Source: the human T2T-CHM13v2.0 reference genome, Homo sapiens | Direction of reading: 5' to 3' | DNA length: 64,000 bases | Assembly: GCA_009914755.4 (NCBI GenBank) | Contig: CP068257.2 | Location: forward strand, 10,816,001-10,880,000 | Position numbers and translations under genes: made by a program | The notes under the pieces: generated by a model | What the model was told of the DNA's origin: nothing | The model's input: only the letters and a program-made list of their open reading frames with translations | Database searches by the model: none | Part shown: piece after piece, positions 1,587 through 64,000 of the stretch | Layout of the letters: every line of letters starts with the position of its first letter | Position numbering within the stretch: position 1 is the first letter of the stretch

Positions 1587-2132
1587 TTATATATGACATA
1601 TACCATATATTATATAATATGCTTTACATGTAATATATAATGTCATATATATTATATGTCATAATATGTAATATTTATCATGTCATATTATATATATATT
1701 ATATATGTTATGTAATATATATTATATAATACATATACATTATATATATTATAGATGAAAATATATAGTTATATATAATGTAATATAAAGTTATATATAA
1801 TAAAATGTATAACATGTCTAATATGCCATATGATATATAATATATATATTTTGTTACATATTTTAATTTATATATAATAAAATATATATAATTGTATAAT
1901 TATATGTAATATAAATAAATATATAATCATATAATTATATATATAATACAAATAATTATGTATATAATTATATCATTATGTAGTTATATGTATAATTATA
2001 TAAGTGTCATTATATATAATATAGTATATAACATATAAAATATATAATATATAATATATAATGTACAATATATGATACATATGTATATTTAATATATCAT
2101 AATATAATTTATATGTTAATATTTGATATTAT
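1587..2132. repeat. AT-rich low-complexity block (degenerate ATATATAAT/GTCATAT-type)
   Basis: Seen: immediately after the Alu A-tail the sequence returns to nearly pure A/T ('ttatatatgacatataccatatattatataatatgc...'). No 42-bp monomer anchor appears until 'tgctcccaaactatataacatatactgtacataaaatatcaaag' at about 2133. Confidence 0.8.
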
Positions 2133-15000: not shown

Positions 15001-15550
15001 CTATATATTACATACTTTACATAAAATATCAAAGTACCCAAATTGTATATTATATACTGTACATGAAATATCAAAGTACCGAAAATATATATTACGTACT
15101 GTGCATAAAATATGAAGGTACATCAAATATATATTATATTCTGTACATAAAATATCAAAGTACACCAAAATATATTATATACCGTACATAATATATTAAA
15201 GTCGCCCAAATATATATTATATACTGTACATAATATATTATGGTCTCCCAAATATATGTTATATACTGTACATAAAATATGAAGGTACATCAAATATATA
15301 TTATATTGTGTACATAAAATATCAAAGTACACATAATATATATTATATTCTGTACAGAAAATATCAAAGTACACCAAAACATATTATATACTGTACATAA
15401 TATATTAAATTCCTGCAAATATATATTATATACTGTACATAAAATATAAAAGTATTCAAAATATGTATAATATACTGTACATAAAATATGAAAGTACCCA
15501 AACATTTATAATAAACTGTACATAAAATAACAAAGTACTCAAACTATATA
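6000..15550 (+). repeat. HSat1 domain with short or irregular higher-order periodicities (about 0.6-2.6 kb), HOR family distinct from downstream
   Basis: Seen: the variant monomer pair 'atgaaagtacccaaacatttataataaactgtacataaaataacaaagtactcaaac' recurs every about 0.3-1.7 kb (for example about 6660, 7290, 8870, 9170, 10700, 11600, 13270, 14490). Minus-strand ORFs starting 'MCTFIIYV.../MGTFIIYV...' recur at 6967, 7553, 9176, 11132, 13702, 14958. ORF 10698..11132 is nearly identical to 13268..13702 (offset 2570). The 'aaaataacaaagtac' variant is rare after about 15.5 kb. Boundaries are approximate. Confidence 0.4.
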
Positions 15551-15774
15551 TTGTATACAGTACATAAAATATCAAAGTACCCAAACTGTATATTATATAC
15601 TGTACAGAAAATATCAAAGTATCCAAAATATATATTATGTACTTTACATAAAATATGGAGGTACATCAAATATATATTATATCCTGTACATAAAATATCA
15701 AAGTACCCAAAGTATGTATTATATACTGTACATAAAATATCAAAGTACCCAAAGTATATATTATATACTGTACA

Positions 15775-17300
15775 TAAAATATCAAAGTACCCAAATTATG
15801 TATTATATACTGTACGTAAAATATCAGAGTACACAAAATATGCATTATATACTGTACATAAAATATGAAAGTAACCAAACATTTATAATAAACTATACAT
15901 AAAATATCAAAGTACTCAAACTATATATCATATACTGTACATAAAATATCAAAGTACCCAAACTGTGTATTATTATATACTGTATATAAAATATCAAAGT
16001 ACCTGAAATATATATTGTATACTGTACATAAAATATCAAAGTACCAAAGTATCTATTATATACTGTACATAAAATATAAACTACCCCAAATATATATTAT
16101 ATGCTGTATATAAAATATCAAAGTACACAAATTATGTATTATATGCTGTACATAAAATATCAAGGTACCCAAAATATATATTGTAAACTGTAGATAAAAT
16201 ATCAAAGTACCCAAAATATATATTATATATTGTACATAAAATATGAAGGCACATCCAATATATATTATATTCTGTACATAAAATATCAAAGTACACCAAA
16301 TGTATATTATATACTGTACATAAAATATCAAAGTACCCAAAGTGTATATTATATACTGTACATAAAATATGAAGTTTCAACAAATATATTTTATATTCTG
16401 TACATAAAATATCAAAGTACCCAAATTATGTATTATATACTGTACGTAAAATATCAGAGTACCCAAAATATGCATTATATACTGTACATAAAATATGAAA
16501 GTAACAAAAAATTTATAATAAACTGTACATAAAATATCAAAGTACTCAAACTATATATCATATACTGTACATAAAATATCAAAGTACACAAACTGTGTAT
16601 TATTATATACTGTATATAAAATATCAAAGTACCTGAAATATATATTGTATACTGTACATAAAATATCAAAGTACCCAAAGTATCTATTATATACTGTACA
16701 TAAAATATAAACTACCCCAAATATATATTATATGCTGTATATAAAATATCAAAGTACACAAAATATGTATTATATGCTGTACATAAAATATCAAGGTACC
16801 CAAAATATATATTTTAAACTGTAGATAAAATATCAAAGTACCCAAAATATATATTATATATTGTACATAAAATATGAAGGCACATCCAATATATATTATA
16901 TTCTGTACATAAAATATCAAAGTACACCAAATGTATATTATATACTGTACATAAAATATCAAAGTACCCAAAGTGTATATTATATACTGTACATAAAATA
17001 TGAAGTTTCATCAAATATATTTTATATTCTGTACATAAAATATCAAAGTACCCAAATTATGTATTATATACTGTACGTAAAATATCAGAGTACCCAAAAT
17101 ATGCATTATATACTGTACATAAAATATGAAAGTAACAAAACATTTATAATAAACTGTACATAAAATATCAAAGTACTCAAACTATATATCATATACTGTA
17201 CATAAAATATCAAAGTACCCAAACTGTGTATTATTATATACTGTATATAAAATATCAAAGTACCTGAAATATATATTGTTTACTGTACATAAAATATCAA
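15775..17300 (+). repeat. Local tandem duplication of a 630-631-bp (about 15-monomer) block, about 2.4 copies
   Basis: Seen: '...ccaaattatgtattatatactgtacgtaaaatatcagagtac...atgaaagtaac(c/a)aaa...tttataataaact.tacataaaatatcaaagtactcaaactatatatcatatactg...tgtgtattattatatactgtatataaaatatcaaagtacctgaaatatatattgt...' starts at about 15775, 16406 and 17037. ORFs 16056..16340 and 16687..16971 (94 aa) match, as do 16230..16532 and 16861..17163 (100 aa), at offset 631. The third copy diverges after about 17300. Confidence 0.7.
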
Positions 17301-17388
17301 AGTACCCAAAATATATACTATATACTGTACATAAAATATGAAGGTACATCAAATATATATTATATCCTGTACATAAAATATCAAAGTA

Positions 17389-20300
17389 CACCTATTTGAT
17401 ATTGTGTACTGTACATAATATATTAAATCACCCAAATATATATTGTATACTGTATATAAAATATGAAGGTACTTCTAATATATATTATATGTTGCACATA
17501 AAATATCAAAGTACCCAAAGTATGCATTACATACTGTACATAAAATATCAAAGTACACAAATTATATATTATATAATGTACATAAAATATGAAGGTTCAT
17601 CAAATATATTTTATATTCTGTACATAATATATCAAAGTACATCAAATATATATTATATACGGTACATAAAATATCAAAGTACCCAAAATATGTATAATTT
17701 ACTGTACATAAAATATGAAAGTAACCAAACATTTATAATAAACTGTACATAAAATATCAAAGTACTCAATCTACATATTATATACAGTATATAAAATATC
17801 AAAGTACACAAACTGTATATTATATACTATACATAATATATCAAAGTACCCAGAATATATAGCATACTGTACATAAAATATCAAAGTACCCAAAATATAT
17901 ATTGTATTCTGTACACAAAATATGAAGGTACATCAAAGATATATTATATTCTGTACATAAAATGTCAAAGTACACCAAATATATATTAAATGCTGTACAT
18001 AATATATTAAAGTTGCCCATATATACATTATATACTGTACATAAAGTATGCACGTACATCAAATATATAGTATATGCTGCACATAAAATATCAAAGTACC
18101 CAAAGTATGTATTATACACTGTACATAAAATATCAAAGTACCAAAACTATATATTACATACTGTAAATAAAATATGAAGGTACCTCAAATATACATTATA
18201 TTCTGTACATAAAATATCAAAGTACACCAAGTATATACTATATAATCTGCATAAAATATTAAATTACCCAAAATATGTATTGTATTGTGTACATAAAATA
18301 TGAAAGTAACCAAACATTTATAATAAACTCTACATAAAATATCAAAGTACTCAAACTGTATATTATATACTGTACATAAAGTATCAAAGTACCCAAACTG
18401 TGTAGTATATACTGTACATAAAATATCAAGGTACCCAAGATATATATTGTAAACTGTAGATAAAATGTCAAAGTACCCAAAATATATACTATATACTGTA
18501 CATAAAATATGAAGGCACATCCAATATATATTATATTCTGTACATAAAATATCAAAGTACACCAAATGTATATTATACACTGTACATAAATTATAAAAGT
18601 ACCCCAAATATATATTATATACTCTACATAAAATATCAAAGTACCCAAAATATATATTATATACTGTACATAAAATATCAAAGTACCCATAGTATGTATT
18701 ATATCCTGTACATAAAATATGAAGGTACATCAAATATATATTCTATTCTGCACATAAAATATCATATTACAACAAATATATATTGTATACTGTATATAAA
18801 ATATGAAGGTACTTCAAATATATATTATATGCTTCACATAAAATATCAAAGTACCCAAAGTATGCATTATATACTGTACATAAAATATCAAAGTACCCAA
18901 AGTGTATATTATATACTGTACATAAAATATGAAGGTTCATCAAATATATTTTATATTCTGCACATAATATATCAAAGTACATCAAATATATATTATATAC
19001 TGTACATAAAATATGAAAGTATCAAAAATATGTATTATATACTGTACATAAAATATGAAAGTAACCAAATATTTATAATAAACTCTACATAAAATATCAA
19101 AGTACTCAAACTACATATTATATACAGTATATAAAATATCAAAGTACCCAAACTGTATATTATATACTGTACATACTATATCAAAGTACCCGAATATATA
19201 GCATACTGTACATAAAATATCAAAGTACCCAAAATATATATTGTATACTGTACATGAAATATGATGGTACATCAAAGATATATTCTGTACATAAAATATC
19301 AAAGTACACCAAATATATATTATATGCTGTACATAATATATTAAAGTTGACCAAATATATATTACATACTGTACATAAAATATGAAGGTACATCAAATAT
19401 ATATTATATGCTGCACATAAAATATCAAAGTACCCAAAGTATGTGTTATATACTGTAAATAAAATATCAAAGTACCCAAAGTATATATTATATACTGTAC
19501 ATAAAATATAAAATACCCCAAATATATATTTTATGCTATACATAAAATATCAAAGTACACAAAATATGTATTATATACTGAGCATAAAATATCAAAGGAC
19601 CCAAAATATATATTATATACTGTACATAAAATATCAAAATACCCAAAATATATATTATATACTGTACATAAAATACCAAAGTACCCAAAGTATATATTAT
19701 ATACCGTACAAAAAATATCAAAGTAGCCAAAATATGTATTATACACTGTACATAATATATGAAAGTACCCAAACATTTATAATAAACTGTACATAAAATA
19801 TCAATGTACTCAAACTATATATTATGTGCGGTACATAAGATATCAAAGTACCCATACTATATAGTATGTACTGTACTTAAAATATCAAAATACCCAAAAT
19901 ATATATTATATACGTTACATAAACTATCAAATACACAAAGTATGTATTATATACTGTACATAAAATAGCAAAGTTCCCAAAATATGTATTATATACTGTA
20001 CATAAAATATGAAAGTACCCAACCATTTATAATAAACTCTACATAAAATACCAAAGTACCCAAACTGTGTATTATATACTGTCCATAAATTATCAAAGTA
20101 CCCAAAATATATATTGAAAACTGTACATAAAATATCAAAGTAGCCAAAATGTATATTGTATACTGTACATAAAATATAAACGTACCCCAAATATATATTA
20201 TATACTGTACATAAAATATCAAAGTACCCATAATACATATTATATACTGTACATAAAATATCAAAGGACCCAAAATAAACATTATATACTGTACATAAAA

Positions 20301-20690
20301 TATCCAAATACTCAAAATATATATTACATACTGTACATAAAATATCAAAGTACCCAAATTATGTATTATATACTGTACGTAAAATATCAGAGTACCCAAA
20401 ATATGCATTGTATACTGTACATAAAATATGAAAGTAGCAAAACATTTATAATAAACTGTACATAAAATATCAAAGTACTAAAACTATATATCATGTACTG
20501 TACATAAAATATCAAAGTACCCAAACTGTGTATTATTATATACTGTCCATAAAATATCAAAGTACCTAAAATATTTATTGCATACTGTACATAAAATATC
20601 AAAGTACCCAAAATATATACTATATACTGTACATAAAATATGAAGGTACATCAAATATATATTATATCCTGTACATAAAATATCAAAGTA
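17389..20690 (+). repeat. One canonical HOR copy (3302 bp) delimited by the 'cacctatt...ttaaatcaccc' landmark
   Basis: Landmark at 17389 and again at 20691. ORF 18694..19092 recurs nearly identically at 21996..22394 (offset 3302). Confidence 0.55.
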
Positions 20691-23600
20691 CACCTATTAT
20701 ATATTGTGTACTGTACATAATATATTAAATCACCCAAATATATATTGTATACTGTATATAAAATATGAAGTTACTTCAAATATATATTATATGCCGCACA
20801 TAAAATATCAAAGTACCCATAGTATGCATTACATACTGTACATAAAATATCAAAGTACACAAATTATATATTATATAATGTACATAAAATATGAAGGTTC
20901 ATAAAATATACTTTATATTCTGTACATAATATATCAAAGTACATCAAATATATATTATATACGGTACATAAAATATCAAAGTACCCAAAATATGTATTAT
21001 TTACTGTACATATAATATGAAAGTAACCAAACATTTATAATAAACTGTACATGAAATATCAAAGTACTCAATCTACATATTATATACAGTATATAAAATA
21101 TCAAAGTACACAAACTGTATATTATATACTGTACATAATATATCAAAGTACCCAGAATATAGAGCATACTGTACATAAAATATCAAAGTACCCAAAATGT
21201 ATATTGTATGCTGTACATAAAATATGAAGGTACATCAAAGATATATTATATTCTGTACATAAAATATCAAAGTACACCAAATATATATTATGTGCTGTAC
21301 ATAATATATTAAAGTTACCCATGTATATATTTTATACTGTACATAAAATATGAAGGTACATCAAATATATAGTATATGCTGCACATAAAATATCAAAGTA
21401 CCCAAAGTATGTATTATATACTGTACATAAAATATCAAAGTACCAAAAGTATATATTACTTACTGTAAATAAAATATGAAAGTACCTCAAATATATATTA
21501 TATTCTGTACATAAAATATCAAAGTAGACCAACTATATACTATATACTCTACATAAAATATTAAATTACCCGACATATGTATTGTATTGTGTACATAAAA
21601 TATGAAAGTAACCAAACATTTATAATAAACTGTACATAAAATATCAAAGTACTCAAACTGTATATTATATACTGTACATAAAGTATCAAACTACCCAAAC
21701 TGTGTAGTATATACTGTACATAAAATATCAAGGTACCCAAAATGTATACTGTAAACTGTAGATAAAATATCAAAGCACCCAAAATATATATTATATACTG
21801 TACATAAAATATGAAGGCACATCCAATATATATTATATTCTGTACATAAAATATCAAAGTACACCAAATGTATATTATATACTATACATAAAATACAAAA
21901 GTACCCCAAATATATATTATCTACTCTACATAAAATATCAAAGTACCCAAAATATATATTATATACTGTACATAAAATATCAAAGTACCCATAGTATGTA
22001 TTATATCCTGTACATAAAATATGAAGGTACATCAAATATATATTCTATTCTGCACATAAAATATCATATTACACCAAATATATATTGTATACTGTATATA
22101 AAATATGAAGGTACTTCAAATATATATTATATGCTGCACATAAAATATCAAAGTACCCAAAGTATGCATTATATACTGTACATAAAATATCAAAGTACCC
22201 AAAGTGTATATTATACACTGGACATAAAATATGAAGGTTCATCAAATACATTTTATATTCTGCACATAATATATCAAAGTACATCAAATATATATTATAT
22301 ACTGTACATAAAATATCAAAGTACCAAAAATATGTATTATATACTGTACATAAAATATGAAAGTAACCAAATATTTATAATAAACTCTACATAAAATATC
22401 AAAGTACTCAAACTACATATTATATACAGTATATAAAATATCAAAGTACCCAAACTGTATATTATATACTGTACATACTATATCAAAGTACCCAAATATA
22501 TAGCATACTGTACATAAAATATCAAAGTACCCATAATATATATTGTATACTGTACATGAAATATGAGGGTACATCAAAGATATATTATATTCTGTACATA
22601 AAATATCAAAGTACACCAAATATATATGATATGCTGTACATAATATATTAAAGTCGAACAAATATATATTACATACTGTATATAAAATATGAAGGTACAT
22701 CAAATATATATTATATGCTGCACATAAAATATCAAAGTACCCAAAGTATGTATTATATACTGTACATAAAATACCAAAGTACCCAAAGTATATATTATAT
22801 ACCGTACAAAAAATATCAAAGTAGCCAAAATATGTATTGTACACTGTACATAATATATGAAAGTACCCAAACATTTATAATAAACTGTACATAAAATATC
22901 AATGTACTCAAACTATATATTATGTGCGGTACATAAGATATCAAAGTACCCATACTATATAGTATGTACTGTACTTAAAATGTCAAAATACCCAAAATAT
23001 ATATTATATACGTTACATAAACTATCAAATACACAAAGTATGTATTATATACTGTACATAAAATAGCAAAGTTCCCAAAATATGTATTATATACTGTACA
23101 TAAAATATGAAAGTACCCAACCATTTATAATAAACTCTACATAAAATACCAAAGTACCCAAACTGTGTATTATATACTGTCCATAAATTATCAAAGTACC
23201 CAAAATATATATTGAAAACTGTACATAAAATATCAAAGTAGCCAAAATGTATATTGTATACTGTACATAAAATATAAACATACCCCAAATATATATTATA
23301 TACTGTACATAAAACATCAAAGTACCCATAATACATATTATATACTGTACATAAAATATCAAAGGACCCAAAATAAACATTATATACTGTACATAAAATA
23401 TCCAAATACTCAAAATATATATTACATACTGTACATAAAATATCAAAGTACCCAAATTATGTATTATATACTGTACGTAAAATATCAGAGTACCCAAAAT
23501 ATGCATTGTATACTGTACATAAAATATGAAAGTAGCAAAACATTTATAATAAACCGTACATAAAATATCAAAGTACTAAAACTATATATCATATACTGTA

Positions 23601-23788
23601 CATAAAATATCAAAGTACCCAAACTGTGTATTATTATATACTGTCCATAAAATATCAAAGTACCTAAAATATATATTGCATACTGTACATAAAATATCAA
23701 AGTACCCAAAATATATACTATATACTGTACATAAAATATGAAGGTACATCAAATATATATTATATCCTGTACATAAAATATCAAAGTA
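20691..23788 (+). repeat. HOR copy, 3098-bp length variant (about 5 monomers shorter than canonical)
   Basis: Same landmark at 20691 and 23789. ORFs 19927..20307 and 23025..23405 are identical (offset 3098). ORFs 20387..20611 and 23485..23709 are near-identical. Confidence 0.55.
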
Positions 23789-26700
23789 CACCTATTATAT
23801 ATTGTGTACTGTACATAATATATTAAATCACCCAAATATATATTGTATACTGTATATAAAATATGAAGGTACTTCAAATATATATTATATGCTGCACATA
23901 AAATATCAAAGTACCCAAAGTATGCATTACATACTGTACATAAAATATCAAAGTACACAAATTATATATTATATAATGTACATAAAATATGAAGGTTCAT
24001 AAAATATACTTTATATTCTGTACATAATATATCAAAGTACATCAAATATATATTATATACGGTACATAAAATATCAAAGTACCCAAAATATGTATTATTT
24101 ACTGTACATAAAATATGAAAGTAACCAAACATTTATAATAAACTGTACATAAAATATCAAAGTACTCAATCTACATATTATATACAGTATATAAAATATC
24201 AAAGTACACAAACTGTATATTATATACTGTACATAATATATCAAAGTACCCAGAATATATAGCATACTGTACATAAAATATCAAATTACCCAAAATATAT
24301 ATTGTATACTGTACATAAAATATAAAGGTACATCAAAGATATATTATATTCTGTACATAAAATATCAAATTACACCAAATATATATTATATGCTGTACCT
24401 AATATATTAAAGTTGCCCATATATACATTATATACTGTACATAAAATATGAACGTACATCAAATATATAGTATATGCTGCACATAAAATATCAAAGTACC
24501 CAAAGTATGTATTATACACTGTACATAAAATATCAAAGTACCAAAAGTATATATTACATACTGTAAATAAAATATGAAGGTACCTCAAATATATATTAAA
24601 TTCTGTACATAAAATATCAAAGTCCACCAAGTATATACTATATACTCTGCAGAAAATATTAAATTACCCAAAATATGTATTGTATTGTGTACATAAAATA
24701 TGAAAGTAACCAAACATTTATAATAAACTGTACATAAAGTATCAAAGTACTCAAACTACATATTATATACAGTATATAAAATGTCAAAGTACCCAAACTG
24801 TATATTATATACTGTACATAATATATCAAAGTACCCAAATATATAGCATACTGTACATAAAATATCAAAGTACCCAAAATATATATTGTATACTGTACAT
24901 AAAATATGAAGGTACATCAAAGATATATTATATTCTGTACATAACATATCAAAGTACACCAAATATATATTATATGCTGTACATAATATATTAAAGTCGA
25001 CCAAATATATATTACATACTGTACATAAAATATGAAGGTACATCAAATATATATTATATGCTGCACATAAAATATCAAAGTACCCAAAGTATGTATTATA
25101 TACTGTACATAAAATATCAAAGTACCCAAAGTATATATTATATACTGTACATAAAATATAAAATACCCCAAATATATATTATATGCTGTACATAAAATAT
25201 CAAAGTACACAAAATATGTATTATGTAGTGTACATACAATATCAAAGGACCCAAAATATATATTATATACTGTACATAAAATATCAAAATACCCAAAATA
25301 TATATTATATACTGTACATAAAATACCAAAGTACCCAAAGTATATATTATATACCATAGAAAAAATATCAAAGTAGCCAAAATATGTATTATACACTGTA
25401 CATAATATATGAAAGTACCCAAACATTTATAATAAACTGTACATAAAATATCAATGTACTCAAACTATGTATTATGTGCGGTACATAACATATCAAAGTA
25501 CCCATACTATATAGTATATACTGTACATAAAATATCAAAGGTCCCAAAATAAACATTATATACTGTACATAAAATATCCAAATACCCAAAATATATATTA
25601 CATACTGTACATAAAATATCAAAGTACCCAAATTATGTATTATATACTGTACGTAAAATATCAGAGTACCCAAAATATGCATTATATACTGTACATAAAA
25701 TATGAAAGTAACAAAACATTTATAATAAACTGTACATAAAATATCAAAGTACTAAAACTATATATCATATACTGTACATAAAATATCAAAGTACCCAAAC
25801 TGTGTATTATTATATACTGTCCATAAAATATCAAAGTACCTGAAATATGTATTGCATACTGTACATAAAATATCAAAGTACCCAAAATATATACTATATA
25901 CTGTACATAAAATATGAAGGTACATCAAATATATATTATATCCTGTACATAAAATATCAAAGTACACCTATTATATATTGTGTACTGTACATAATATATT
26001 AAATCACCCAAATATATATTGTATACTGTATATAAAATATGAAGGTACTTCAAATATATATTATATGCTGCACATAAAATATCAAAGTACCCAAAGTATG
26101 CATTACATACTGTACATAAAATATCAAAGTACACAAAGTGTATATTATATACTGTACATAAAATATGTAGGTTCATCAAATATATTTTATATTCTGTACA
26201 TAATATATCAAAGTACATCAAATATATATTATATATGGTACATAAAATATCAAATTACCCAAAATATGTATTATTTACTGTGCATAAAATATGAAAGTAA
26301 CCAAACATTTATAATAAACTGTACATAAAATATCAAAGTACTCAATCTACGTATTATATACAGTATATAAAATGTCAAAGTACACAAACTGTATATTATA
26401 TACTGTACATAATATATCAAAGTACCCAGAATATATAGCATACTGTACATAAAATATCAAATTAGCCAAAATATATATTGTATACTGTACATAAAATATG
26501 AAGGTACATCAAAGATATATTATATTCTGTACATAAAATATCAAAGTACACCAAATATATATTATATGCTGTACATAATATATTAAAGTTGCCCATGTAT
26601 ACATTTTATACTGTACATAAAATATGAAGGTACATCAAATATATAGTATATGCTGCACATAAAATATCAAAGTACCCAAAGTATGTAATATATACTGTAC

Positions 26701-52000: not shown

Positions 52001-55000
52001 ACACCAAGTATATACTATATACTCTGCAACAAATATTAAATTACCCAAAATATGTACTGTATTGTGTACATAAAATATGAAAGTAACCAAACATTTATAA
52101 TAAACTGTACATAAAATATCAAAGTACTCAAACTGTATATTATATACTGTACATAAAGTATCAAAGTACCCAAACTGTGTAGTATATACTGTACATAAAA
52201 TATCAAGGTACCCAAAATATATATTGTAAACTGTAGATAAATTATCAAAGTACCCAAAATATATATTATATACTGTACATAAAATATGAAGGCACATCCA
52301 ATATATATTATATTCTGTACATAAAATATCAAAGTACACCAAATGTATATTATATACTGTACATAAAATATCAAAGTACCCAAAGTGTTTATTATATACT
52401 GTACATAAAATATGAAGGTACATCAAAGATATATTATATTCTGTACATAAAATATCAAAGTACACCAAGTATATATTATATGCTGTACATAATATATTAA
52501 AGTCGACCAAATATATATTACATACTGTACATAAAATATGAAGGTACATCAAATATATATTATATGCTGCACATAAAATATCAAAGTACCCAAAGTATGT
52601 ATTATATACTCTACATAAAATATCAAAGTACCCAAAGTATATATTATATACTGTACATAAAATATAAAATACCCCAAATATATATTTTATGCTGTACATA
52701 AAATATCAAAGTACACAAAATATGTATTATATACTGTGCATAAAATATCAAAGGACCCAAAATATATATTATATACTGTACATAAAATATCAAAATACCC
52801 AAAATATATATTATATACTGTACAGAAAATACCAAAGTACCCAAAGTATATATTATATACCGTACAAAAAATATCAAAGTAGCCAAAATATGTATTATAC
52901 ACTGTACATAATATATGAAAGTACCCAAACATTTATAATAAACTGTACATAAAATATCAATGTACTCAAACTATATATTATGTGCGGTACATAAGATATC
53001 AAAGTACCCATACTATATAGTATGTACTGTACTTAAAATATCAAGATACCCAAAATATATATTATATACGTTACATAAACTATCAAATACACAAAGTATG
53101 TATTATATACTGTACATAAAATAGCAAAGTTCCCAAAATATGTATTATATACTGTACATAAAATATGAAAGTACCCAAACATTTATAATAAACTCTACAT
53201 AAAATACCAAAGTACCCAAACTGTGTATTATATACTGTCCATAAATTATCAAAGTACCCAAAATATATATTGTAAACTGTACATAAAATATCAAAGTAGC
53301 CAAAATGTATATTGTATACTGTACATAAAATATAAACGTACCCCAAATATATATTATGTACTGCACATAAAATATCAAAGTACCCATAATACATATTATA
53401 TACTGTACATAAAATATCAAAGGACCCAAAATAAACATTATATACTGTACATAAAATATCCAAATACTCAAAATATATATTACATACTGTACATAAAATA
53501 TCAAAGTACCCAAATTATGTATTATATACTGTACGTAAAATATCACAGTACCCAAAATATGCATTGTATACTGTACATAAAATATGAAAGTAGCAAAACA
53601 TTTATAATAAACTTTACATAAAATATCAAAGTACTAAAACTATATATCATATACTGTACCTAAAATATCAAATTACCCAAACTGTATATTATTATATACT
53701 GTCCATAAAATAACAAAGTACCTGAAATATATATTGTATACTGTACATAAAATATCAAAGTACCCAAAATATATACTATATACTGTACATAAAATATGAA
53801 GTTACATCAAATATATATTATATCCTGTACATAAAATATCAAAGTACACCTATTATATATTGTGTACTGTACATAATATATTAAATCCCCCAAATATATA
53901 TTGTATACTGTATATAAAATATGAAGGTACTTCAAATATATATTATATGCTGCACATAAAATATCAAAGTACCCAAAGTATGCATTACATACTGTACATA
54001 AAATATCAAAGTACACAAATTATATATTATATACTGTACATAAAATATGAAGGTTCATAAAATATATTTTATATTCTGTACATAATATATCAAAGTACAT
54101 CAAATATATATTATATACGGTACATAAAATATCAAAGTACCCAAAATATGTATTATTTACTGTACATAAAATATGAAAGTAACCAAACATTTATAATAAA
54201 CTGTACATGAAATATCAAAGTACTCAATCTACATATTATATACAGTATATAAAATATCAAAGTACACAAACTGTATATTATATACTGTACATAATATATC
54301 AAAGTACCCAGAATATATAGCATACTGTACATAAAATATCAAAGTACCCAAAATGTATATTGTGTACTGTACATAAAATATAAAGGTACATCAAAGATAT
54401 ATTATATTCTGTACATAAAATATCAAATTACACCAAGTATATATTATATGCTGTACATAATATATTAAAGTTGCCCATATATACATTATACACTTTACAT
54501 AAAATATGAACGTACATCAAATATATAGTATATGCTGCACATAAAATATCAAAGTACCCAAAGTATGTATTATACACTGTACATAAAATATCAAAGTACC
54601 AAAAGTATATATTGCATACTGTAAATAAAATATGAAGGTAACTGAAATATATATTATATTCTGTACATAAAATATAAAAGTACACCAAGTATAAACTACA
54701 TACTCTGCATAAAATATTAAATTACCCAAAATATGTATTGTATTGTGTACATAAAATATGAAAGTAACCAAACATTTATAATAAACTGTACATAAAATAT
54801 CAAAGTACTCAAACTGTATATTATATACTGTACATAAAGTATCAAAATACCCAAACTGTGTAGTATATACTGTACATAAAATATCAAGGTACCCAAAATA
54901 TATATTGTAAACTGTAGATACAATATCAAAGTACCCAAAATATATATTATATACTGTACATAAAATATGAAGGCACATCCAATATATATTATATTCTGTA

Positions 55001-58000
55001 CATAAAATATCAAAGTACACCAAATGTATATTATATACTGTACATAAAATATAAAAGTACCCCGAATATATATTATATACTCTACATAAAATATCAAAGT
55101 ACCCAAAATAGATATTATATACTGTACATAAAATATCAAAGTACCCATAGTATGTATTATATCCTGTACATAAAATATGAAGGTACATCAAATATATATT
55201 CTATTCTGCACATAAAATATCATATTACACCAAATATATATTGTATACTGTATATAAAATATGAAGGTACTTCAAATACATATTATATGCTGCACATAAA
55301 ATATCAAAGTACCGAAAGTGTGCATTATATGCTGTACATAAAATATCAAAGTACCCAAAGTGTATATTATATACTGTACATAAAATGTGAAGGTTCATCA
55401 AATATATTTTATATTCTGCACATAATATATCAAAGTACATCAAATATATATTATATACTGTACATAAAATATTAAAGTACCAAAAATATGTATTATATAC
55501 TGTACATAAAATATGAAAGTAACCAAACATTTATAATAAACTGTACATAAAGTATCAAAGTACTCAAACTACATATTATATACAGTATATAAAATATCAA
55601 AGTACCCAAACTGTATATTATATACTGTACATAATATATCAAAGTACCCAAATATATAGCATACTGTACATAAAATATTAAAGTACCCAAAATATATATT
55701 GTATACTGTACATAAAATATGAAGGTACATCAAAGATATATTATATCCTGTACATAAAATATCAAAGTACACCAAATATATATTATATGCTGTACATAAT
55801 ATATTAAAGTCGAACAAATATATATTATATACTGTACATAAAATATGAAGGTACATCAAATATATATTATATGCTGCACATAAAATATCAAAGTACCCAA
55901 AGTATGTATTATATACTGTACATAAAATATCAAAGTACCCAAAGTATATATTATATACCGTATATAAAATATAAAATACCCCAAATATATATTATATGCT
56001 GTACATAAAATATCAAAGTACACAAAATATTTATTATACACTGTACATAAAATATCAACGGACCCAAAATATATATTATATACTGTACATAAAATATCAA
56101 AATATCCAAAATATATATTATATACTGTACATAAAATACCAAAGTACCCAAAGTATATATTATATACCGTACAAAAAATATCAAAGTAGCCAAAATATGT
56201 ATTATACACTGTACATAATATATGAAAGTACCCAAACATTTATAATAAACTGTACATAAAATATCAATGTACTCAAACTATATATTATGTGCGGTACATA
56301 AGATATCAAAGTACCCATACTATATAGTATATACTGTACTTAAAATATCAAAATACCCAAAATATATATTATATACGTTACATAAACTATCAAATACACA
56401 AAGTATGTATTATATACTGTACATAAAATAGCAAAGTTCCCAAAATATGTATTATATACTGTACATAAAATATGAAAGTACCCAACCATTTATAATAAAC
56501 TCTACATAAAATACCAAAGTACCCAAACTGTGTATTATATACTGTCCATAAAATATCAAAGTACCCAAAATATATATTGTAAACTGCACATAAAATATCA
56601 AAGTAGCCAAAATATATATTGTATACTGTACATAAAATATAAACGTACCCCAAATATGTATTATATACTGTACATAAAATATCAAAGTACCGATAATACA
56701 TATTATATGCTGTACATAAAATATCAAAGGACCCAAAATAAACATTATATACTGTACATAAAATATCCAAATACTCAAAATATATATTACATACTGTACA
56801 TAAAATATCAAAGTACCCAAATTATGTATTATATACTGTACGTAAAATATCAGAGTACCCAAAATATGCATTATATACTGTACATAAAATATGAAAGTAA
56901 CAAAACATTTATAATAAACTGTACATAAAATATCAAAGTACTCAAACTATATATCATATACTGTACATAAAATATCAAAGTACCCAAACTGTGTATTATT
57001 GTATACTGTATATAAAATATCAAAGTACCTGAAATATATATTGTATACTGTACATAAAGTATCAAAGTACCCAAAACATATACTCTATACTGTACATAAA
57101 ATATGAAGGTACATCAAATATATCTTATATCCTGTACATAAAATATCAAAGTACACCTATTATATATTGTGTACTGTACATAATATATTAAATCACCCAA
57201 ATATATATTGTACACTGTATATAAAATATGAAGGTACTTCAAATGTATATTATATGCTGCACATAAAATATCAAAGTACCCAAAGTATGCATTACATACT
57301 GTAAATAAAATATGAAGGTACCTCAAATATATATTATATTCTGTACATAAAATATCAAAGTACACCAAGTATATACTATATACTCTGCATAAAATATTAA
57401 ATTACCCACAATATGTATTGTATTGTGTACATAAAATGTGAAAGTAACCAAACATTTATAATAAACTGTACATAAAATATCAAAGTACTCAAACTGTATA
57501 TTATATACTGTACATAAAGTATCAAAGTACCCAAACTGTGTAGTATATACTGTACATAAAATGTCAAGGTACGCAAAATATATATTGTAAACTGTAGATA
57601 AAATATCAAAGTACCCAAAATATATATTATATACTGTACATAAAATATGAAGGCACATCCAATATATATTATATTCTGTACATAAAATATCAAAGTACAC
57701 CAAATGTATATTATACACTGTACATAAAATATCAAAGTACCCAACGTGTATATTATATACTGTACACAAAATATGAAGGTTCATCAAATATATTTTATAT
57801 TCTGCACATAATATATCAAAGTACATCAAATATATATCATATACTGTACATAAAATATCAAAGTACCAAAAATATGTATTATATACTGTACATAAAATAT
57901 GAAAGTAACCAAACATATATAATAAACTGTACATAAAATATCAAAGTACTCGAACTACATATTATATACAGTATATAAAATGTCAAAGTACCCAAACTCT

Positions 58001-59845
58001 ATATTATATACTGTACATAATATATCAAAGTACCCGAATATATAGCATACTGTACATAAAATATCAAATTACCCAAAGTGTGTATTATACACTGCACATA
58101 AAATATGAAGGTACATAAAATATATATTGTATTCTGTACATAAAATATCAAAGTACTCCAAATATATATTACATGCTGTACATAATATATTAAAGTTGCC
58201 CAAATATATATTATATACTGTACATAAAATATGAAGGTACATCAAATATATAGTATATGCTGCACATAAAATATCAAAGTACCCAAAGTATGTATTATAT
58301 ACTGTACATAAAATATCAAAGTACCCAAAGTATATATTATATACTGTACATAAAATATAAAATACCCCAAATATACATTATATGCTGTACATAAAATATC
58401 AAAGTACACAAAATATGTATTATGTACTGTGCATAAAATATCAAAGGACCCAAAATATATATTATATACTGTAGATAAAATATCAAAATACCCAAAATAT
58501 ATATTATATACCCTACATAAAATACCAAAGTACAGAAAGTATATATTATATACCGTACAAAAAATATCAAAGTAGCCAAAATATGTATTATACACTGTAC
58601 ATAATATATGAAAGTACCCAAACATTTATAATAAACTGTACATAAAATATCAATGTACTCAAACTATATATTATGTTCGGTACATAAGATATCAAAGTAC
58701 CCATACTATATAGTATGTACTGTACTTAAAATATCAAAATACCCAAAATATATATTATATACGTTACATAAACTATCAAATACACAAAGTATGTATTATA
58801 TACTGTACATAAAATAGCAAAGTTCCCAAAATATGTATTATATACTGTACATAAAATATGAAAGTACCCAACCATTTATAATAAACTCTACATAAAATAC
58901 CAAAGTACCCAAACTGTGTATTATATACTGTCCATAAAATATCAAAGTACACAAAATATATATTGTCAACTGTACATAAAATATCAAAGTAGCCAAAATA
59001 TATATAGTATACCGTACATAAAATATAAAATTACCCCAAATATATATTATATACTGTACATAAAATATCAAAGTACCGATAATACATATTATATACTGTA
59101 CATAAAATATCAAAGGACCCAAAATAAACATTATATACTGTACATAAAATATTCAAATACTCAAAATATATATTACATACTGTACATAAAATATCACACT
59201 ACCCAAATTATGTATTATATACTGTACGTAAAATATCAGAGTACCCAAAATATGCATTATATACTGCACATAAAATATGAAAGTAACAAAACATTTATAA
59301 TAAACTCTACATAAAATATCAAAGTACTCAAACTATATATCATATACTGTACATAAAATGTCAAAGTACCCAAACTGTGTATTATTATATACTGTATATA
59401 AAATATCAAAATACCTGAAATATATATTGCATACTGTACATAAAATATCAAAGTACCCAAAATATATACTATATACTGTACATAAAATATGAAGGTACAT
59501 CAAATATATATTATATCCTGTACATAAAATATCAAACTACACCTATTAGATATTGTGTACTGTACATAATATATTAAATCCCCCAAATATATATTGTATA
59601 CTGTATATAAAATATGAAGGTACTTCAAATTCATATTACATGCTGCACATAAAATATCAAACTACCCAAGGTATGCATTATATACTGTACATAAAATATC
59701 AAAGTACACAAATTATATATTATATACTGTACATAAAATATGAAGGTTCATCAAATATATTTTATATTCTGTACATAATATATCAAAGTACATCAAATAT
59801 ATATTATATACGGTACATAAAATATCAAAGTACCAAAAATATGTA

Positions 59846-62620
59846 TTATATACTGTACATAAAATATGAAAGTAACCAAACATTCATAATAAATTGTACA
59901 TAAAATATCAAAGTACTCAAACTACATATTATATACAGTATATAAAATATCAAAGTACACAAACTGTATATTATATACTGTACATAATATATCAAAGTAC
60001 CCGAATATATAGCATACTGTACATAAAATATCAAAGTACCCAAAATATATATTGTATACTGTACATAAAATATGAAGGTACATCGAAGATATATTATATT
60101 GTGTACATAAAATATCAAAGTACACCAAATATATATTATATGCTGTACATAATATATTAAAGTTGCCCAAATATATATTATATACTGTACATAAAATATG
60201 AAGGCACATCAAATATATAGTATATGCTGCACATAAAATATCAAAGTACCCAAAGTATGTAATATATACTGTACATAACATATCAAAGTACCAAAAGTAT
60301 ATATTACCTACTGTAAATAAAATATGAAGGTACCAGAAATATACATTATATTCTGTACATAAAATATCAAAGTACACCAAATATATACTATATACTGTAC
60401 ATACAATATTAAATTACCCACAATATGTATTGTATTGTGTACATAAAATATGAAAGTAACCAAACATTTATAATAAACTGTACATAAAATATCAAAGTAC
60501 TCAAACTGTATATTATATACTGTACATAAAGTATCAAAGTACCCAAACTGTGTAGTATACACTGTACATAAAATATCAAGGTACCCAAAATATATATTGT
60601 AAACTGTAGATACGATATCAAATTACCCAAAATATATATTATATACTGTACATAAAATATGAAGGCACATCCAGTATATATTATATTCTGTGCATAAAAT
60701 ATCAAAGTACACCAAATGTATATTATATACTGTACATAAAATATAAAAGTACCCCAAGTATATATTATATACTCTATATAAAATATGAAAGTACCCAAAA
60801 TATATATTATATACTGTACATAAAATATCAAAGTACCCATAGTATGTATTATATCCTGTACATAAAATATGAAGGTACATCAAATATATATTATATTCTG
60901 CACATAAAATATCATATTACACCAAATATATATTATATACTGTACATAAAATATGAAGGTACATCAAATGTATATTATATGCTGCACATAAAATATCAAA
61001 GTCCCCAAAGTTTGTATTATATACTGTACATAAAATATCAAAGTATCCAAAGTGTATATTATATACTGTACATAAAATATGAAGGTACATCCGATACATA
61101 TTATATTCTGTACATAAAATATCAAAGTACACCAAGTATATATTATATACTGTACATAAAATATTAAATTACCCGAAATATGTATTGTATACTGTACATA
61201 AAATATGAAAGTAACCAAACATTTATAATAAACTGTACATAAAATATCAAAGTACTCAAACTACATATTATATACAGTATATAAAATATCAAAGTACCCA
61301 AACTGTATATTATATACTGTACATACTATATCAAAGTACCCGAATATATAGCATACTGTACATAAAATATCAAAGTACCCAAAATATATATTGTACACTG
61401 CACATAAAATATGAAGCTACATCAAAGATATATTATATTCTGTACATAAAATATCAAAGTACACCAAATATATATTATATGCTGTACATAATATATTAAA
61501 GTCGACCAAATATATATTACATACTGTACAAAAAATATGAAGGTACATCAAATATATATTATATGCTGCACATAAAATATCAAAGTACCCAAAGTATGTA
61601 TTATATACTGTACATAAAATATCAAAATACCCAAAGTATATATTATATACTATACATACAATATAAAATACCCCAAATATATATTATATGCTGTACATAA
61701 AATATCAAAGTACACAAAATATGTATTATGTACTGTACATAAAATATCAAAGGACCGAAAATATATATTATATACTGTACATAAAATATCAAAATACCCA
61801 AAATATATACTATATACTGTACATAAAATACCAAAGTACCCAAAGTATATATTATATACCGTACAAAAAATATCAAAGTAGCCAAAGTATGTATTATACA
61901 CTGTACATAATATATGAAAGTACCCAAACATTTATAATAAACTGTACATAAAATATCAATGTACTCAAACTATATATTATGTTCGGTACATAACATATCA
62001 AAGTACCCATACTATATAGTATATACTGTACTTAAAATATCAAAATACCCAAAATATATATTATATACGTTACATAAATTATCCAATACCCAAAGTATGT
62101 ATTATATACTGTACTTAAAATAGCAAAGTTCCCAAAATATGTATTATATACTGTACATAACAAATGAAAGTACCCAACCATTTATAGTAAACTCTACATA
62201 AAATACCAAAGTACCCAAACTGTGTATTATATACTGTCCATAAATTATCAAAGTACCCAAAATATATATTGTAAACTGTACATAAAATATCAAAGTAGCC
62301 AAAATGTATATTGTATACTGTACATAAAATATAAACGTACCCCAAATATATATTATATACTGTACACAAAATATCAAAGTACCCATAATACATATTATAT
62401 ACTGTACATAAAATATCAAAGGACCCAAAATAAACATTATATACTGTACATAAAATATCCAAATACTCAAAATATATATTACATACTGTACATAAAATAT
62501 CAAAGTACCCAAATTATGTATTATATACTGTACGTAAAATATCAGAGTACCCAAAATATGCATTATATACTGTACATAAAATATGAAAGTAACCAAACAT
62601 TTATAATAAACTGTACATAA
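59846..62620 (+). repeat. Long-range duplicated block A, copy 2
   Basis: See copy 1 at 30619-33389. The offset is a constant 29,227 bp up to about 32.4 kb, then 29,231 bp (a 4-bp indel). Confidence 0.7.
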
Positions 62621-62635
62621 AATATCAAAGTACTC

Positions 62636-64000
62636 GAACTACATATTATATACAGTATATAAAATGTCAAAGTACCCAAACTCTATATTATATACTGTAC
62701 ATAATATATCAAAGTACCCGAATATATAGCATACTGTACATAAAATATCAAAGTACCCAAAGTGTGTATTATACACTGCACATAAAATATGAAGGTACAT
62801 AAAATATATATTCTATTCTGTACATAGAATATCAAAGTACTCCAAATATATATTATATGCTGTACATAATATATTAAAGTTGCCCAAATATATATTATAT
62901 ACTGTACATAAAATATGAAGGTACATCAAATATATAGTATATGCTGCACATAAAATATCAAAGTACCCAAAGTATGTATTATATACTGTACATAAAATAT
63001 CAAAGTACCCAAAGTATATATTATATACTGTACATAAAATATAAAATACCCCAAATATATATTATATGCTGTACATAAAATATCAAAGTACACAAAATAT
63101 GTATTATGTACTGTGCATACAATATCAAAGGACCCAAAATATATATTATATACTGTACATAAAATATCAAAATACCCAAAATATATATTATATACCCTAC
63201 ATAAAATACCAAAGTACCCAAAGTATATATTATATACCGTACAAAAAATATCAAAGTAGCCAAAATATGTATTGTACACTGTACATAATATATGAAAGTA
63301 CCCAAACATTTATAATAAACTGTACATAAAATATCAATGTACTCAAACTATATATTATGTTCGGTACATAAGATATCAAAGTACCCATACTATATAGTAT
63401 GTACTGTACTTAAAATATCAAAATACCCAAAATATATATTATATACGTTACATAAACTATCAAATACACAAAGTATGTATTATATACTGTACATAAAATA
63501 GCAAAGTTCCCAAAATATGTATTATATACTGTACATAACATATGAAAGTACCCAACCATTTATAGTAAACTCTACATAAAATAACAAAGTACCCAAACTG
63601 TGTATTATATACTGTCCATAAATTATCAAAGTACCCAAAATATATATTGTAAACTGTACATAAAATATCAAAGTAGCCAAAATGTATATTGTATACTGTA
63701 CATAAAATATAAACGTACCCCAAATATATATTATATACTGTACATAAAATATCAAAGTACCCATAATACATATTATATACTGTACATAAAATATCAAAGG
63801 ACCCAAAATAAACATTATATACTGTACATAAAATATCCAAATACTCAAAATGTATATTACATACTGTACATAAAATATCAAAGTACCCAAATTATGTATT
63901 ATATACTGTAAGTAAAATATCAGAGTACCCAAAATATGCATTATATACTGTACATAAAATATGAAAGTAACAAAACCTTTATAATAAACTCTACATAAAA
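62636..64000 (+). repeat. Long-range duplicated block B, copy 2 (truncated by the window end)
   Basis: See copy 1 at 35036-36420. Blocks A and B are contiguous here at 62620/62636, but about 1.63 kb apart in the first occurrence. Confidence 0.65.

What the first reader, a model, noticed from the sequence alone, without database searches (positions are those of the whole stretch)
15550..64000. ~3.30-kb HOR with about 99% inter-copy identity and many length variants
Seen: landmark spacings cluster at 3302-3308 bp, which is about 79 monomers. Copies about 3.1-9 kb apart translate to peptides differing by 0-2 of 139 residues, while adjacent monomers differ by about 10-25%. That is the signature of an actively homogenised HOR array. 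Other spacings (3098, 3012, 2941, 2552, about 2386, 2295-2306, about 2176, 1378, about 910-925, and the compound 4333, 5495 and 5755) indicate frequent out-of-register unequal exchange, giving deletion and duplication variants. This is a rich structural-variant substrate for a satellite usually treated as monotonous.
Basis: seen in the sequence. Interest (0 to 1): 0.55.

Follow-up and report, generated by a model that had tools for sequence, protein, structure and literature searches.

The report
Satellite 1A 79-monomer repeat with variants
This is the edge of a primate (almost certainly human) satellite 1A array whose 42-bp units are organised into a real 3.3-kb, 79-unit higher-order repeat riddled with deletions and duplications, which is a well-documented example of a known kind of satellite organisation rather than something new.

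Summary
From about 17,050 to the end of the window, the 42-bp AT-rich satellite (classical satellite I / HSat1A) is built from one ordered block of 79 monomers (3,302-3,307 bp).

- **Units:** there are 14 landmark-to-landmark units. Only 3 are intact 79-mers. The other 11 are collinear deletion or duplication derivatives, with 26 junctions of 19 distinct types.
- **Identity:** same-position monomers are 96.0% identical, against 80.6% for different positions. Whole units are 95-98.5% identical, not about 99%. About 99-100% holds only for each segment's closest relative, in blocks of 0.4-1.5 kb covering 45% of the domain.
- **Coordinates:** the stated start of 15,550 is about 1.5 kb too early. 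2,136-15,550 is a different, more diverged domain.
- **Independent support:** 54 metagenome contigs, at least two labelled human gut, carry the same monomer order. Five of the window's junction types recur in them.
- **Commonest form elsewhere:** 22 contigs carry the 72-monomer form (deletion of monomers 30-36, 3,012 bp) and 6 carry the 79-mer path. A 2.97-kb satellite I higher-order repeat was reported in 1993, and HSat1 higher-order repeats were reported again in 2021-22.

Verdict: genuine but ordinary. Unequal exchange is inferred, not shown.

The parts
1..645 (.). TA-rich low-complexity flank with a period of about 16 bp, outside the satellite array
   Evidence: TRF; sequence read
1296..1587 (+). 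Alu-like SINE in the non-satellite flank, which marks the source as a primate genome
   Evidence: Recognised from the sequence (GGCTCAGGCCTGTAATCCCAGCAC... ending in poly-A); recognition rests on my own knowledge. Weak hit to the Alu-derived mir-1268 at 1416-1482, below the gathering score.
2136..64000 (+). Continuous 42-bp satellite array (HSat1A / classical satellite I) in one orientation. It runs off the right end of the window.
   Evidence: TRF: period 42, 1,481 copies, 80% matches. GC about 22%. GTAC spacing alternates between 17 and 25 bp.
2136..15789 (+). Outer, older domain that is not the 79-mer HOR. 2.1-7 kb holds diverged monomers. 7-15.5 kb holds an irregular repeat patchwork at lags 1256, 1830, 2570, 3826, 4441 and 5654, at 91-98% identity.
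   Evidence: Maps to the 79-mer only in short pieces at 80-92% identity. Nearest-neighbour identities. No blocks of 99% or higher.
15790..17050 (+). Transition zone: a 631-bp (15-monomer) tandem duplication made of HOR-like monomers (72-77, 51-52, 25-31). The two copies are up to 99.3% identical in 420-bp windows.
17051..17388 (+). Partial unit (monomers 72-79) that opens the HOR domain
   Evidence: nearest-neighbour identity jumps to 98% at 17,047
17389..20690 (+). Unit 1: intact 79-mer, 3,302 bp
   Evidence: 98.5% identical to unit 4 by MAFFT
20691..23788 (+). Unit 2: monomers 1-49 and 55-79, a 5-monomer (209-bp) deletion; 3,098 bp
23789..25964 (+). Unit 3: monomers 1-22, 41-59, 69-79; 2,176 bp
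   Evidence: the 22>41 junction recurs in contig L003 at 97.0%
25965..29271 (+). Unit 4: intact 79-mer, 3,307 bp, used as the reference unit
29272..33614 (+). Unit 5: monomers 1-29 followed by about 5/37-79, 104 monomers, 4,343 bp. The breakpoint is ambiguous because monomers 2-17 and 34-49 are paralogous. The junction window matches the common 29>37 junction.
33615..36626 (+). Unit 6: monomers 1-29 and 37-79, a 72-monomer, 3,012-bp form with a 294-bp deletion. This is the commonest form in independent contigs.
36627..38718 (+). Unit 7: monomers 1-29, 37-46, 69-79; 2,092 bp
38719..42110 (+). Unit 8: monomers 1-29, 31-37, 20-26, 54-57, 46-79; 3,392 bp. It shares three junctions with unit 10.
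   Evidence: the 37>20 junction recurs in L021 at 98.8%
42111..44416 (+). Unit 9: monomers 1-3, 13-29, 45-79; 2,306 bp
44417..51165 (+). Unit 10: compound 162-monomer unit with 9 internal junctions; 6,749 bp
   Evidence: the 66>65 junction recurs in L045 at 97.9%
47433..48912 (+). Perfect (0 mismatches) 532-bp tandem triplication of monomers 40-52, the youngest event in the window
   Evidence: 100% identity at lag 532
51166..53846 (+). Unit 11: monomers 1-29 and 45-79; 2,681 bp
53847..57153 (+). Unit 12: intact 79-mer, 3,307 bp
57154..59539 (+). Unit 13: monomers 1-3, 19-29, 37-79; 2,386 bp
59540..64000 (+). Unit 14: monomers 1-73 then 41-74, cut off by the window end. It is about 99.3-99.5% identical to 30,859-36,393 except for a 39-monomer deletion.
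   Evidence: the 73>41 junction recurs in L026 at 99.1%
19989..20408 (-). It is an artefact of 42 bp equalling 14 codons, not a gene.

Best explanation
The window holds the left edge of a primate, most likely human, HSat1A (classical satellite I) array. The layout from left to right is:
- a non-satellite flank containing an Alu;
- a diverged outer satellite layer (2.1-15.8 kb);
- a short transition zone;
- from about 17.05 kb onward, a domain built from one 79-monomer (3,302-3,307 bp) higher-order repeat (HOR).

The 79-mer itself contains an older internal duplication: monomers 2-17 resemble 34-49.

**Shown.** The array has been remodelled by deletions and duplications whose junctions keep the 42-bp monomer phase but break the 79-monomer register.

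**Shown.** Rearranged multi-unit blocks of up to about 6 kb were later copied again.

**Inferred.** These events arose by unequal sister-chromatid or intrachromosomal exchange, possibly with gene conversion or replication slippage.

The result is a mosaic. Only 3 of 14 units are intact. Average copy identity is about 96-97%. Each segment nevertheless has a 99-100% twin somewhere else in the window.

The DNA is non-coding. The long open frames exist only because 42 bp equals 14 codons.
For: **Satellite identity**
- TRF gives period 42 from 2136 to 64000. GC is 22%.
- RsaI (GTAC) sites alternate at 17 and 25 bp, matching the A(17)+B(25) description of satellite I.
- An Alu lies in the flank.
- The same sequence occurs in metagenome contigs, at least two of them labelled human gut.

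**Higher-order repeat**
- The unit is 79 monomers.
- Homologous monomers are 96.0% identical and non-homologous ones 80.6%.
- All 14 units are collinear with one monomer order, and this is robust to parameters.
- At base level, units 2 and 6 differ from the canonical unit by single clean deletions of 209 and 294 bp.
- The monomer-order shuffle control removes the long-range repeats.

**Rearrangement features**
- Odd-length monomers sit mostly at fixed HOR positions (monomers 12, 44 and 76). The main exception is a 34-bp monomer 51 in three copies beside the 52>40 duplication junction, so junctions mostly preserve monomer phase.
- Junction flanks are modestly more similar than random pairs: 0.868 against 0.839, P about 0.006.
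- Some junctions are shared between units: 29>37 three times, 29>45 twice, a three-junction cluster twice, and 52>40 twice.
- Blocks at 99.0-100% identity occur at lags from 532 to 33,156 bp.
- 30.9-36.4 kb matches 60.1-64.0 kb apart from a 39-monomer deletion.

**Independent support**
- 54 contigs carry the same order at 96-98% per monomer, some across more than one full period.
- Junctions 29>37, 37>20, 66>65, 73>41 and 22>41 recur in these contigs at 97-99%.
Against: - No single period dominates. Mean identity at a lag of 79 monomers is only 0.834 against a background of 0.808, and 11 of 14 units are rearranged.
- Identity between copies does not fall with distance. Simple local unequal crossover would not predict this.
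- Homology at junctions is only weakly elevated, so non-homologous mechanisms are not excluded.
- Fourteen of the 19 junction types lack independent confirmation.
- Breakpoints inside the paralogous blocks 2-17 and 34-49 are ambiguous.
- The species and chromosome were not determined directly.
Confidence: 0.85

Rival explanations
1. The real canonical repeat of this satellite is the 72-monomer, about 3.01-kb form lacking monomers 30-36. It may be the 2.97-kb 'pTRI-6' satellite I higher-order repeat (HOR) of chromosomes 13 and 21. On this view the 3.30-kb 79-mer is an ancestral, minority form that survives near the array edge.
For: - In independent contigs the 29>37 junction occurs in 22 contigs and the 29>30 path in 6.
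- All three window copies of the 29>37 junction match 22 contigs at 96% or higher, up to 99.1%.
- The 72-mer is present in the window as unit 6, 3,012 bp.
- The paralogy between monomers 2-17 and 34-49 runs unbroken across the 36|37 boundary. This implies the 79-mer is ancestral and the 72-mer derived.
Against: - Within the window the 29>30 path is commoner than 29>37, about 8 occurrences against 3.
- The contigs are short-read metagenome assemblies selected for the landmark. They favour the highest-coverage path and may pool several arrays or individuals.
- The pTRI-6 sequence (L01057.1) could not be obtained, so the match rests on length only (2.97 against 3.01 kb).
- The large chr13 array is reported to be dominated by a 378-bp 9-mer.
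Confidence: 0.5
2. There is no true higher-order repeat. The region is a monomeric satellite overprinted by a few large segmental duplications, and these happen to give recurring spacings.
For: - The lag-79 periodicity is weak.
- Only 3 intact units exist.
- The best matches lie at many unrelated lags: 8576, 12838, 22913, 27597 and 29231.
Against: - Every one of the 14 landmark-delimited units follows the same monomer order, with copy number 8-18 for each of the 79 positions.
- Independent contigs traverse more than one full period in the same order. Examples are L023 (3,792 bp) and L050 (4,773 bp).
- Spacings of 3302 to 3307 bp are together the commonest long k-mer spacing.
Confidence: 0.05
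3. Many of the 'length variants' are assembly artefacts, that is, collapses or false joins in a near-identical tandem array, rather than real structural variants.
For: - Copies 96-100% identical over kilobases are a known difficulty for assemblers.
- Fourteen of the 19 junction types have no independent support.
- No read data are available.
Against: - Five junction types recur at 97-99% in independently assembled contigs.
- Junctions mostly stay in monomer phase and several are shared between units in differently diverged contexts. That is what inherited variants would look like.
- Copies differ by about 3-4%, which is ample for long-read assembly.
Confidence: 0.08

Closest known systems
HSat1A (classical human satellite I, RepeatMasker 'SAR') higher-order repeats, including the 378-bp 9-mer of the chr13 array (Altemose et al. 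2021/22; Lopes et al. 2023)
   Same: Same satellite family: a 42-bp monomer made of 17-bp A and 25-bp B units, about 22% GC, pericentromeric or acrocentric-type sequence. The principle is the same too: monomers are grouped into a longer repeat that is much more homogeneous than the monomers. HORs in HSat1 were explicitly reported with NTRprism.
   Different: The period here is 79 monomers (72 in the deletion form), or 3.0-3.3 kb, not 9 monomers or 378 bp. No 378-bp peak appears in the k-mer spacings. This stretch is far more rearranged than a regular HOR.
pTRI-6 satellite I subfamily with a 2.97-kb HOR on chromosomes 13 and 21 (Kalitsis et al. 1993, as cited in PMC8125562)
   Same: Satellite I with a HOR of about 3 kb. 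The 72-monomer form here is 3,012 bp and is the commonest form in independent contigs.
   Different: Only the length can be compared. The pTRI-6 sequence and its chromosomal location could not be checked. The modal unit in this window is 3.30 kb, not 2.97 kb.
Alpha-satellite HOR arrays with structural variants and layered (edge-old, core-young) architecture
   Same: Shared features: an ordered multi-monomer unit; inter-copy identity far above inter-monomer identity; deletion and duplication variants in monomer register; shared variants re-amplified in blocks; a diverged layer at the array edge. Layered expansion and HOR structural variants are described for alpha satellite.
   Different: The monomer is 42 bp rather than 171 bp, with 79 monomers per unit. 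Only 21% of units are canonical and mean copy identity is about 96-97%. This is less regular and less homogeneous than active alpha arrays (the alpha-satellite figures are from my own knowledge). No centromere-protein role is implied.

Membership tests
HSat1A / classical satellite I | Tandem 42-bp monomer | tested here: met
   TRF gives period 42 and 1,481 copies across 2136-64000. Of the monomers, 1,214 are 42 bp and 178 are 41 bp.
HSat1A / classical satellite I | Monomer made of alternating A (17 bp) and B (25 bp) units, defined by RsaI sites | tested here: met
   GTAC spacings are dominated by 17 bp (728 cases) and 25 bp (597 cases), and 785 consecutive spacing pairs are {17,25}. The definition is taken from PMC8125562.
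HSat1A / classical satellite I | Extreme AT-richness (about 23% GC) | tested here: met
   GC is 0.21-0.23 throughout the array. Lopes et al. report 23% GC.
HSat1A / classical satellite I | Sequence match to the Dfam SAR (DF0001062) consensus, or RepeatMasker 'SAR' annotation | not testable with these tools
   No Dfam or RepeatMasker library and no human genome are available. Indirect support comes from the landmark 31-mer, which occurs in 54 metagenome contigs, at least two labelled human gut, carrying the same repeat.
HSat1A / classical satellite I | Primate (African ape or human) genomic context | tested here: inconclusive
   An Alu-like element was recognised by eye at 1296-1587. The only tool support is a sub-threshold hit to the Alu-derived mir-1268. 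Contigs labelled human gut metagenome match at up to 99%. The species was not proven.
Higher-order repeat (HOR) | An ordered block of distinct monomers repeated as a unit | tested here: met
   All 14 units follow one 79-monomer order. Independent contigs do the same.
Higher-order repeat (HOR) | Identity between units much higher than identity between monomers within a unit | tested here: met
   96.0% against 80.6%. Units are 96.4-98.5% identical by MAFFT.
Higher-order repeat (HOR) | A regular, dominant period across the array | tested here: inconclusive
   3302-3307 bp is the commonest long spacing, but only 3 of 14 units have it and the lag-79 signal is weak. The window covers only 47 kb of an array of unknown size.
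pTRI-6 2.97-kb satellite I HOR (chr13/21) | HOR period of about 2.97 kb | tested here: inconclusive
   A 72-monomer, 3,012-bp form exists in the window (unit 6) and predominates in independent contigs. The window's modal unit is 3.30 kb.
pTRI-6 2.97-kb satellite I HOR (chr13/21) | Sequence identity to clone L01057.1 and location on chromosomes 13 and 21 | not testable with these tools

The most novel reading that the evidence does not exclude
This array edge preserves the ancestral 79-monomer form of the classical ~3-kb satellite I higher-order repeat. HSat1A would then turn over structurally much faster than alpha satellite. The supporting figures are one rearrangement junction per about 1.8 kb, only 21% canonical units, multi-unit blocks re-copied over 30 kb or more, and Ts/Tv of about 0.8. 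That would make HSat1A an unusually recombinogenic substrate, possibly relevant to exchange between acrocentric short arms.
Probability: 0.15. Interest if true: 0.45.

Novelty: already known. Interest (0 to 1): 0.22.

Why it matters
The practical value is descriptive. The report provides three things:
- a clean 79-monomer reference unit;
- a junction catalogue of 19 junction types;
- evidence that a 72-monomer deletion form is the commoner one in other individuals.

These could serve as markers for mapping reads, typing array haplotypes, or measuring structural mutation in HSat1A across pangenome assemblies.

Conceptually it adds little. Higher-order repeats in satellite I have been known since 1993 and were rediscovered in the complete human genome. 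Unequal exchange producing repeat length variants is textbook satellite biology.

Tried and rejected
- **Base-wise autocorrelation** showed no 3.3-kb peak, because small indels break the register. I replaced it with k-mer spacing analysis and monomer-level analysis.
- **Monomer-lag identity profile** gave only a weak peak at lag 79. It is not useful alone, because variants shift the register.
- **Permissive BLAST self-alignment** gave 84-97% for long matches. These run through non-homologous stretches and understate identity.
I replaced it with my own diagonal scan.
- **Exact 45-nt landmark search** found nothing in metagenome or bacterial-genome contigs. A 31-nt core then found 54 metagenome contigs. 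A generic monomer pattern found only two tiny contaminant contigs in bacterial genomes.
- **The window's non-satellite flank (1-2135)** has no match in those contigs, so the chromosome could not be placed.
- **Literature.** I found no text describing a 79- or 72-monomer HSat1A repeat. A search for the monomer sequence in papers found nothing. PMC9233505 is not held. One search ('satellite I' plus '2.97') returned only irrelevant papers.
- **Coding interpretation** rejected. The 73 ORFs of 120 aa or more follow from the 42-bp, 14-codon periodicity.
- **First BLAST of contig L025 against the window** timed out. It was redone in bins.

Full report
**What the window is**

TRF finds one continuous 42-bp tandem array from 2136 to the window end. 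It has 1,481 copies at 80% matches, with consensus CCCAAAATATATATTATATACTGTACATAAAATATCAAAGTA. GC is 21-23% and strand skew is constant, so there are no inversions.

GTAC (RsaI) sites alternate at 17 and 25 bp. This is the A(17)+B(25) construction that defines classical satellite I, now called HSat1A or 'SAR'.

Left of the array lie a TA-rich low-complexity stretch (1-645) and an Alu-like element at about 1296-1587. I recognised the Alu by eye. The only tool support is a weak hit to the Alu-derived mir-1268. The source is therefore a primate.

The window's landmark core occurs in 54 metagenome contigs, at least two of them labelled human gut metagenome. That points to human host DNA. I could not determine the chromosome.

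**Checking the observation**

The spacings are 3302, 3098, 2176, 3307, 4343, 3012, 2092, 3392, 2306, 6749, 2681, 3307 and 2386.

The commonest long spacings of exact 40-mers are 3302, 3098, 3307, 3013, 5483, 2681, 5741 and so on.

I cut the array into 1,483 monomers by wrap-around alignment to the consensus. The unit at 25,965-29,271 is exactly 79 monomers. Within it, monomers are 80.7% identical on average.

Shuffling monomer order removes the long repeats. Positions in recurring 100-mers number 20,052 in the real sequence and 30 on average in shuffles. The structure is far beyond chance.

**Is it one higher-order repeat (HOR) with variants?**

Yes. I ran a Viterbi decomposition with 79 reference monomers as states, free progression from i to i+1, and a penalty for jumps.

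From 17,389 to 64,000 every landmark-delimited unit is a collinear path through the same 79-monomer order. Intact 79-mers sit at 17,389, 25,965 and 53,847. The other 11 units carry deletions or duplications. Examples:
- unit 2 has monomers 1-49 and 55-79;
- unit 6 has 1-29 and 37-79;
- unit 11 has 1-29 and 45-79;
- unit 10 is a compound unit of 162 monomers.

There are 26 junctions of 19 distinct types. In 11 of 12 combinations of reference unit and penalty the counts stay at 22-27 junctions and 17-20 types. The most permissive setting gives 35 junctions and 23 types.

At base level, MAFFT shows that units 2 and 6 differ from the canonical unit by single clean gaps of 209 bp (5 monomers) and 294 bp (7 monomers).

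Odd-length monomers sit mostly at fixed HOR positions: monomer 12 is 40 bp, monomer 44 is 39 bp and monomer 76 is 45 bp. The main exception is a 34-bp monomer 51 in three copies beside the 52>40 duplication junction. Junctions therefore mostly preserve the 42-bp phase.

**How similar are the copies?**

| Comparison | Identity |
|---|---|
| Monomers at the same HOR position | mean 96.0%, median 97.6% |
| Monomers at different positions | 80.6% |
| Adjacent monomers | 80.5% |
| Whole units | mean 96.3%, range 94.9-98.4% |
| Neighbouring units | 96.4% |
| Five units by MAFFT, base level | 96.4-98.5% |

It is accurate for nearest relatives. The best homologue of a monomer averages 99.1%, and 74% of monomers have an exact twin. 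Windows of 420 bp usually have a 98-100% match somewhere in the window. Ungapped blocks of 0.4-1.5 kb at 99.0-100% cover 45% of the HOR domain and none of the outer domain.

Its first three copies differ by 0, 2 and 2 residues, exactly as stated. Across all eight copies the differences are 0-10 residues, median 6.

These frames are artefacts. Because 42 bp equals 14 codons, a stop-free frame can stay open across many monomers.

**Structure beyond the unit**

- Identity between homologous monomers does not fall with distance. It is about 96% from under 4 kb to over 30 kb.
- Nearest relatives lie at many lags, including 532, 3013, 3098, 5483, 7355, 8576/8581, 12838, 27597, 29227/29231 and 33156, and 22913 among the nearest-neighbour windows.
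- Several junctions are shared between units: 29>37 in three units, 29>45 in two, the cluster 37>20/26>54/57>46 in two, and 52>40 twice. Already-rearranged units were therefore re-amplified.
- 30.9-36.4 kb and 60.1-64.0 kb are 99.3-99.5% identical apart from a 39-monomer deletion.
- The youngest event is a perfect 532-bp triplication at 47,433-48,912.
- Junction flanks are slightly more similar than random monomer pairs, 0.868 against 0.839, P about 0.006.
- The 79-mer contains an older internal duplication. Monomers 2-17 resemble 34-49 at 95-100%. This makes some breakpoints ambiguous, for example in unit 5.

**Boundaries**

The HOR domain starts near 17,050, where nearest-neighbour identity jumps to 98%. 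It does not start at 15,550.
- 15,790-17,050 is a 631-bp duplication of HOR-like monomers.
- 2,136-15,789 maps to the 79-mer only in short pieces at 80-92%.
- That outer domain has its own irregular repeats at 91-98%.

This is a diverged outer layer next to a more homogeneous interior, as described for alpha-satellite arrays.

**Independent sequences**

Fifty-four metagenome contigs of 1-13 kb align collinearly to the tandem 79-mer. They decompose into the same monomer order at 96-98% per monomer. Some cross more than one full period, for example L023 and L050. The HOR is therefore not peculiar to this assembly.

In these contigs the 29>37 junction, which gives the 72-monomer 3,012-bp form, occurs in 22 contigs. 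The 29>30 path occurs in 6.

Five of the window's junction types recur at 97-99% over 336-bp windows: 29>37, 37>20, 66>65, 73>41 and 22>41. The other 14 types have no such support.

The paralogy between monomers 2-17 and 34-49 runs unbroken across the 36|37 boundary. I infer from this that the 79-mer is ancestral and the 72-mer is a derived deletion that became common.

Caveats apply. These are short-read assemblies of unknown individuals, selected by the landmark, and they may pool several arrays.

**Mechanism**

- *Shown:* monomer-phase deletions and duplications, re-amplification of rearranged blocks, and a mosaic of near-identical patches.
- *Inferred:* unequal sister-chromatid or intrachromosomal exchange, with possible contributions from gene conversion and replication slippage.

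The flat identity-distance relation and the weak junction homology mean that simple nearest-neighbour crossover is not the whole story.

**Comparison with what is known**

- HSat1A is a 42-bp satellite found mainly on chromosomes 3, 4, 13 and the other acrocentrics.
- HORs in HSat1 were reported with NTRprism in the T2T centromere paper.
- The chr13 array is described as dominated by a 378-bp 9-mer. No such peak is seen here.
- A review records that satellite I 'can form HORs of 2.97 Kb', citing Kalitsis et al. 1993 on pTRI-6 and chromosomes 13/21. This is close to the 3,012-bp form, but I could not obtain L01057.1 to test it.
- I found no text describing a 79- or 72-monomer unit or its variant catalogue.

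**Verdict**

This is a real feature of a known kind.

Four parts of the claim need correction:
- the identity figure is too high;
- the start coordinate is about 1.5 kb too early;
- the array is not uniformly 'actively homogenised';
- HSat1A is no longer treated as monotonous.

Interest is low to modest. The most useful by-products are the monomer-resolved unit, the junction catalogue, and the hint that a 72-monomer deletion form predominates elsewhere.

Noticed in passing
window 1-2135: This is the non-satellite flank of the array. It holds TA-rich low-complexity sequence with a 16-bp period (1-645), a short unique stretch (about 720-1290), an Alu-like element (about 1296-1587, + strand) and more TA-rich sequence up to the array start at 2136. 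The flank has no match in the 54 related contigs.
   Followed up: partly
window 2136-15789: This outer satellite domain is distinct from the 79-mer higher-order repeat. 2.1-7 kb holds diverged monomers whose best 420-bp match is 65-92%. 7-15.5 kb is an irregular patchwork of repeats at lags 1256, 1830, 2570, 3826, 4441 and 5654 bp with 91-98% identity.
   Followed up: partly
window 47433-48912: A perfect (0 mismatches) 532-bp tandem triplication of monomers 40-52. It is the most recent duplication visible in the window.
   Followed up: yes
window 17389-64000, both strands (e.g. 19989-20408, minus strand): The window contains 73 ORFs of 120 aa or more, including a 139-codon frame recurring 8 times. 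They arise because 42 bp equals 14 codons, so a stop-free frame can stay open across many monomers. They are not evidence of coding.
   Followed up: partly
window 17389-64000: Variants among homologous copies have a transition/transversion ratio of 0.82 (235 transitions, 286 transversions). A 2026 pangenome preprint reports similarly low Ti/Tv for HSat1A.
   Followed up: partly
window 25965-29271 (reference unit): The 79-mer contains an older internal duplication. Monomers 2-17 are 95-100% identical to monomers 34-49, an offset of 32 monomers or about 1,340 bp. A distinctive 'ACC-AAACATTTATAATAAA' monomer type recurs at positions 9, 23, 41, 58, 64 and 74.
   Followed up: partly
L025 (BNJS01002714.1) 1-13234: This 13-kb metagenome contig shows another gradient from repeat-type monomers (94-97%) to progressively diverged monomers (about 77-88%). 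It is not the same edge as in the window. It may be the other end of the array or a different array.
   Followed up: partly
L028, L029, L043 (also L002, L031): In these contigs the satellite abuts non-satellite sequence. The flanks of L028, L029 and L043 have 40-50% GC; those of L002 and L031 are AT-rich (about 25-32% GC). They could be true array boundaries or chimeric metagenome joins. I did not examine them.
   Followed up: no
L055 (Streptomyces sp. DH5 contig, 425 bp), L056 (uncultured bacterium contig, 360 bp): Two tiny contigs in bacterial genome assemblies consist of this satellite. They are almost certainly human DNA contamination in those records.
   Followed up: no
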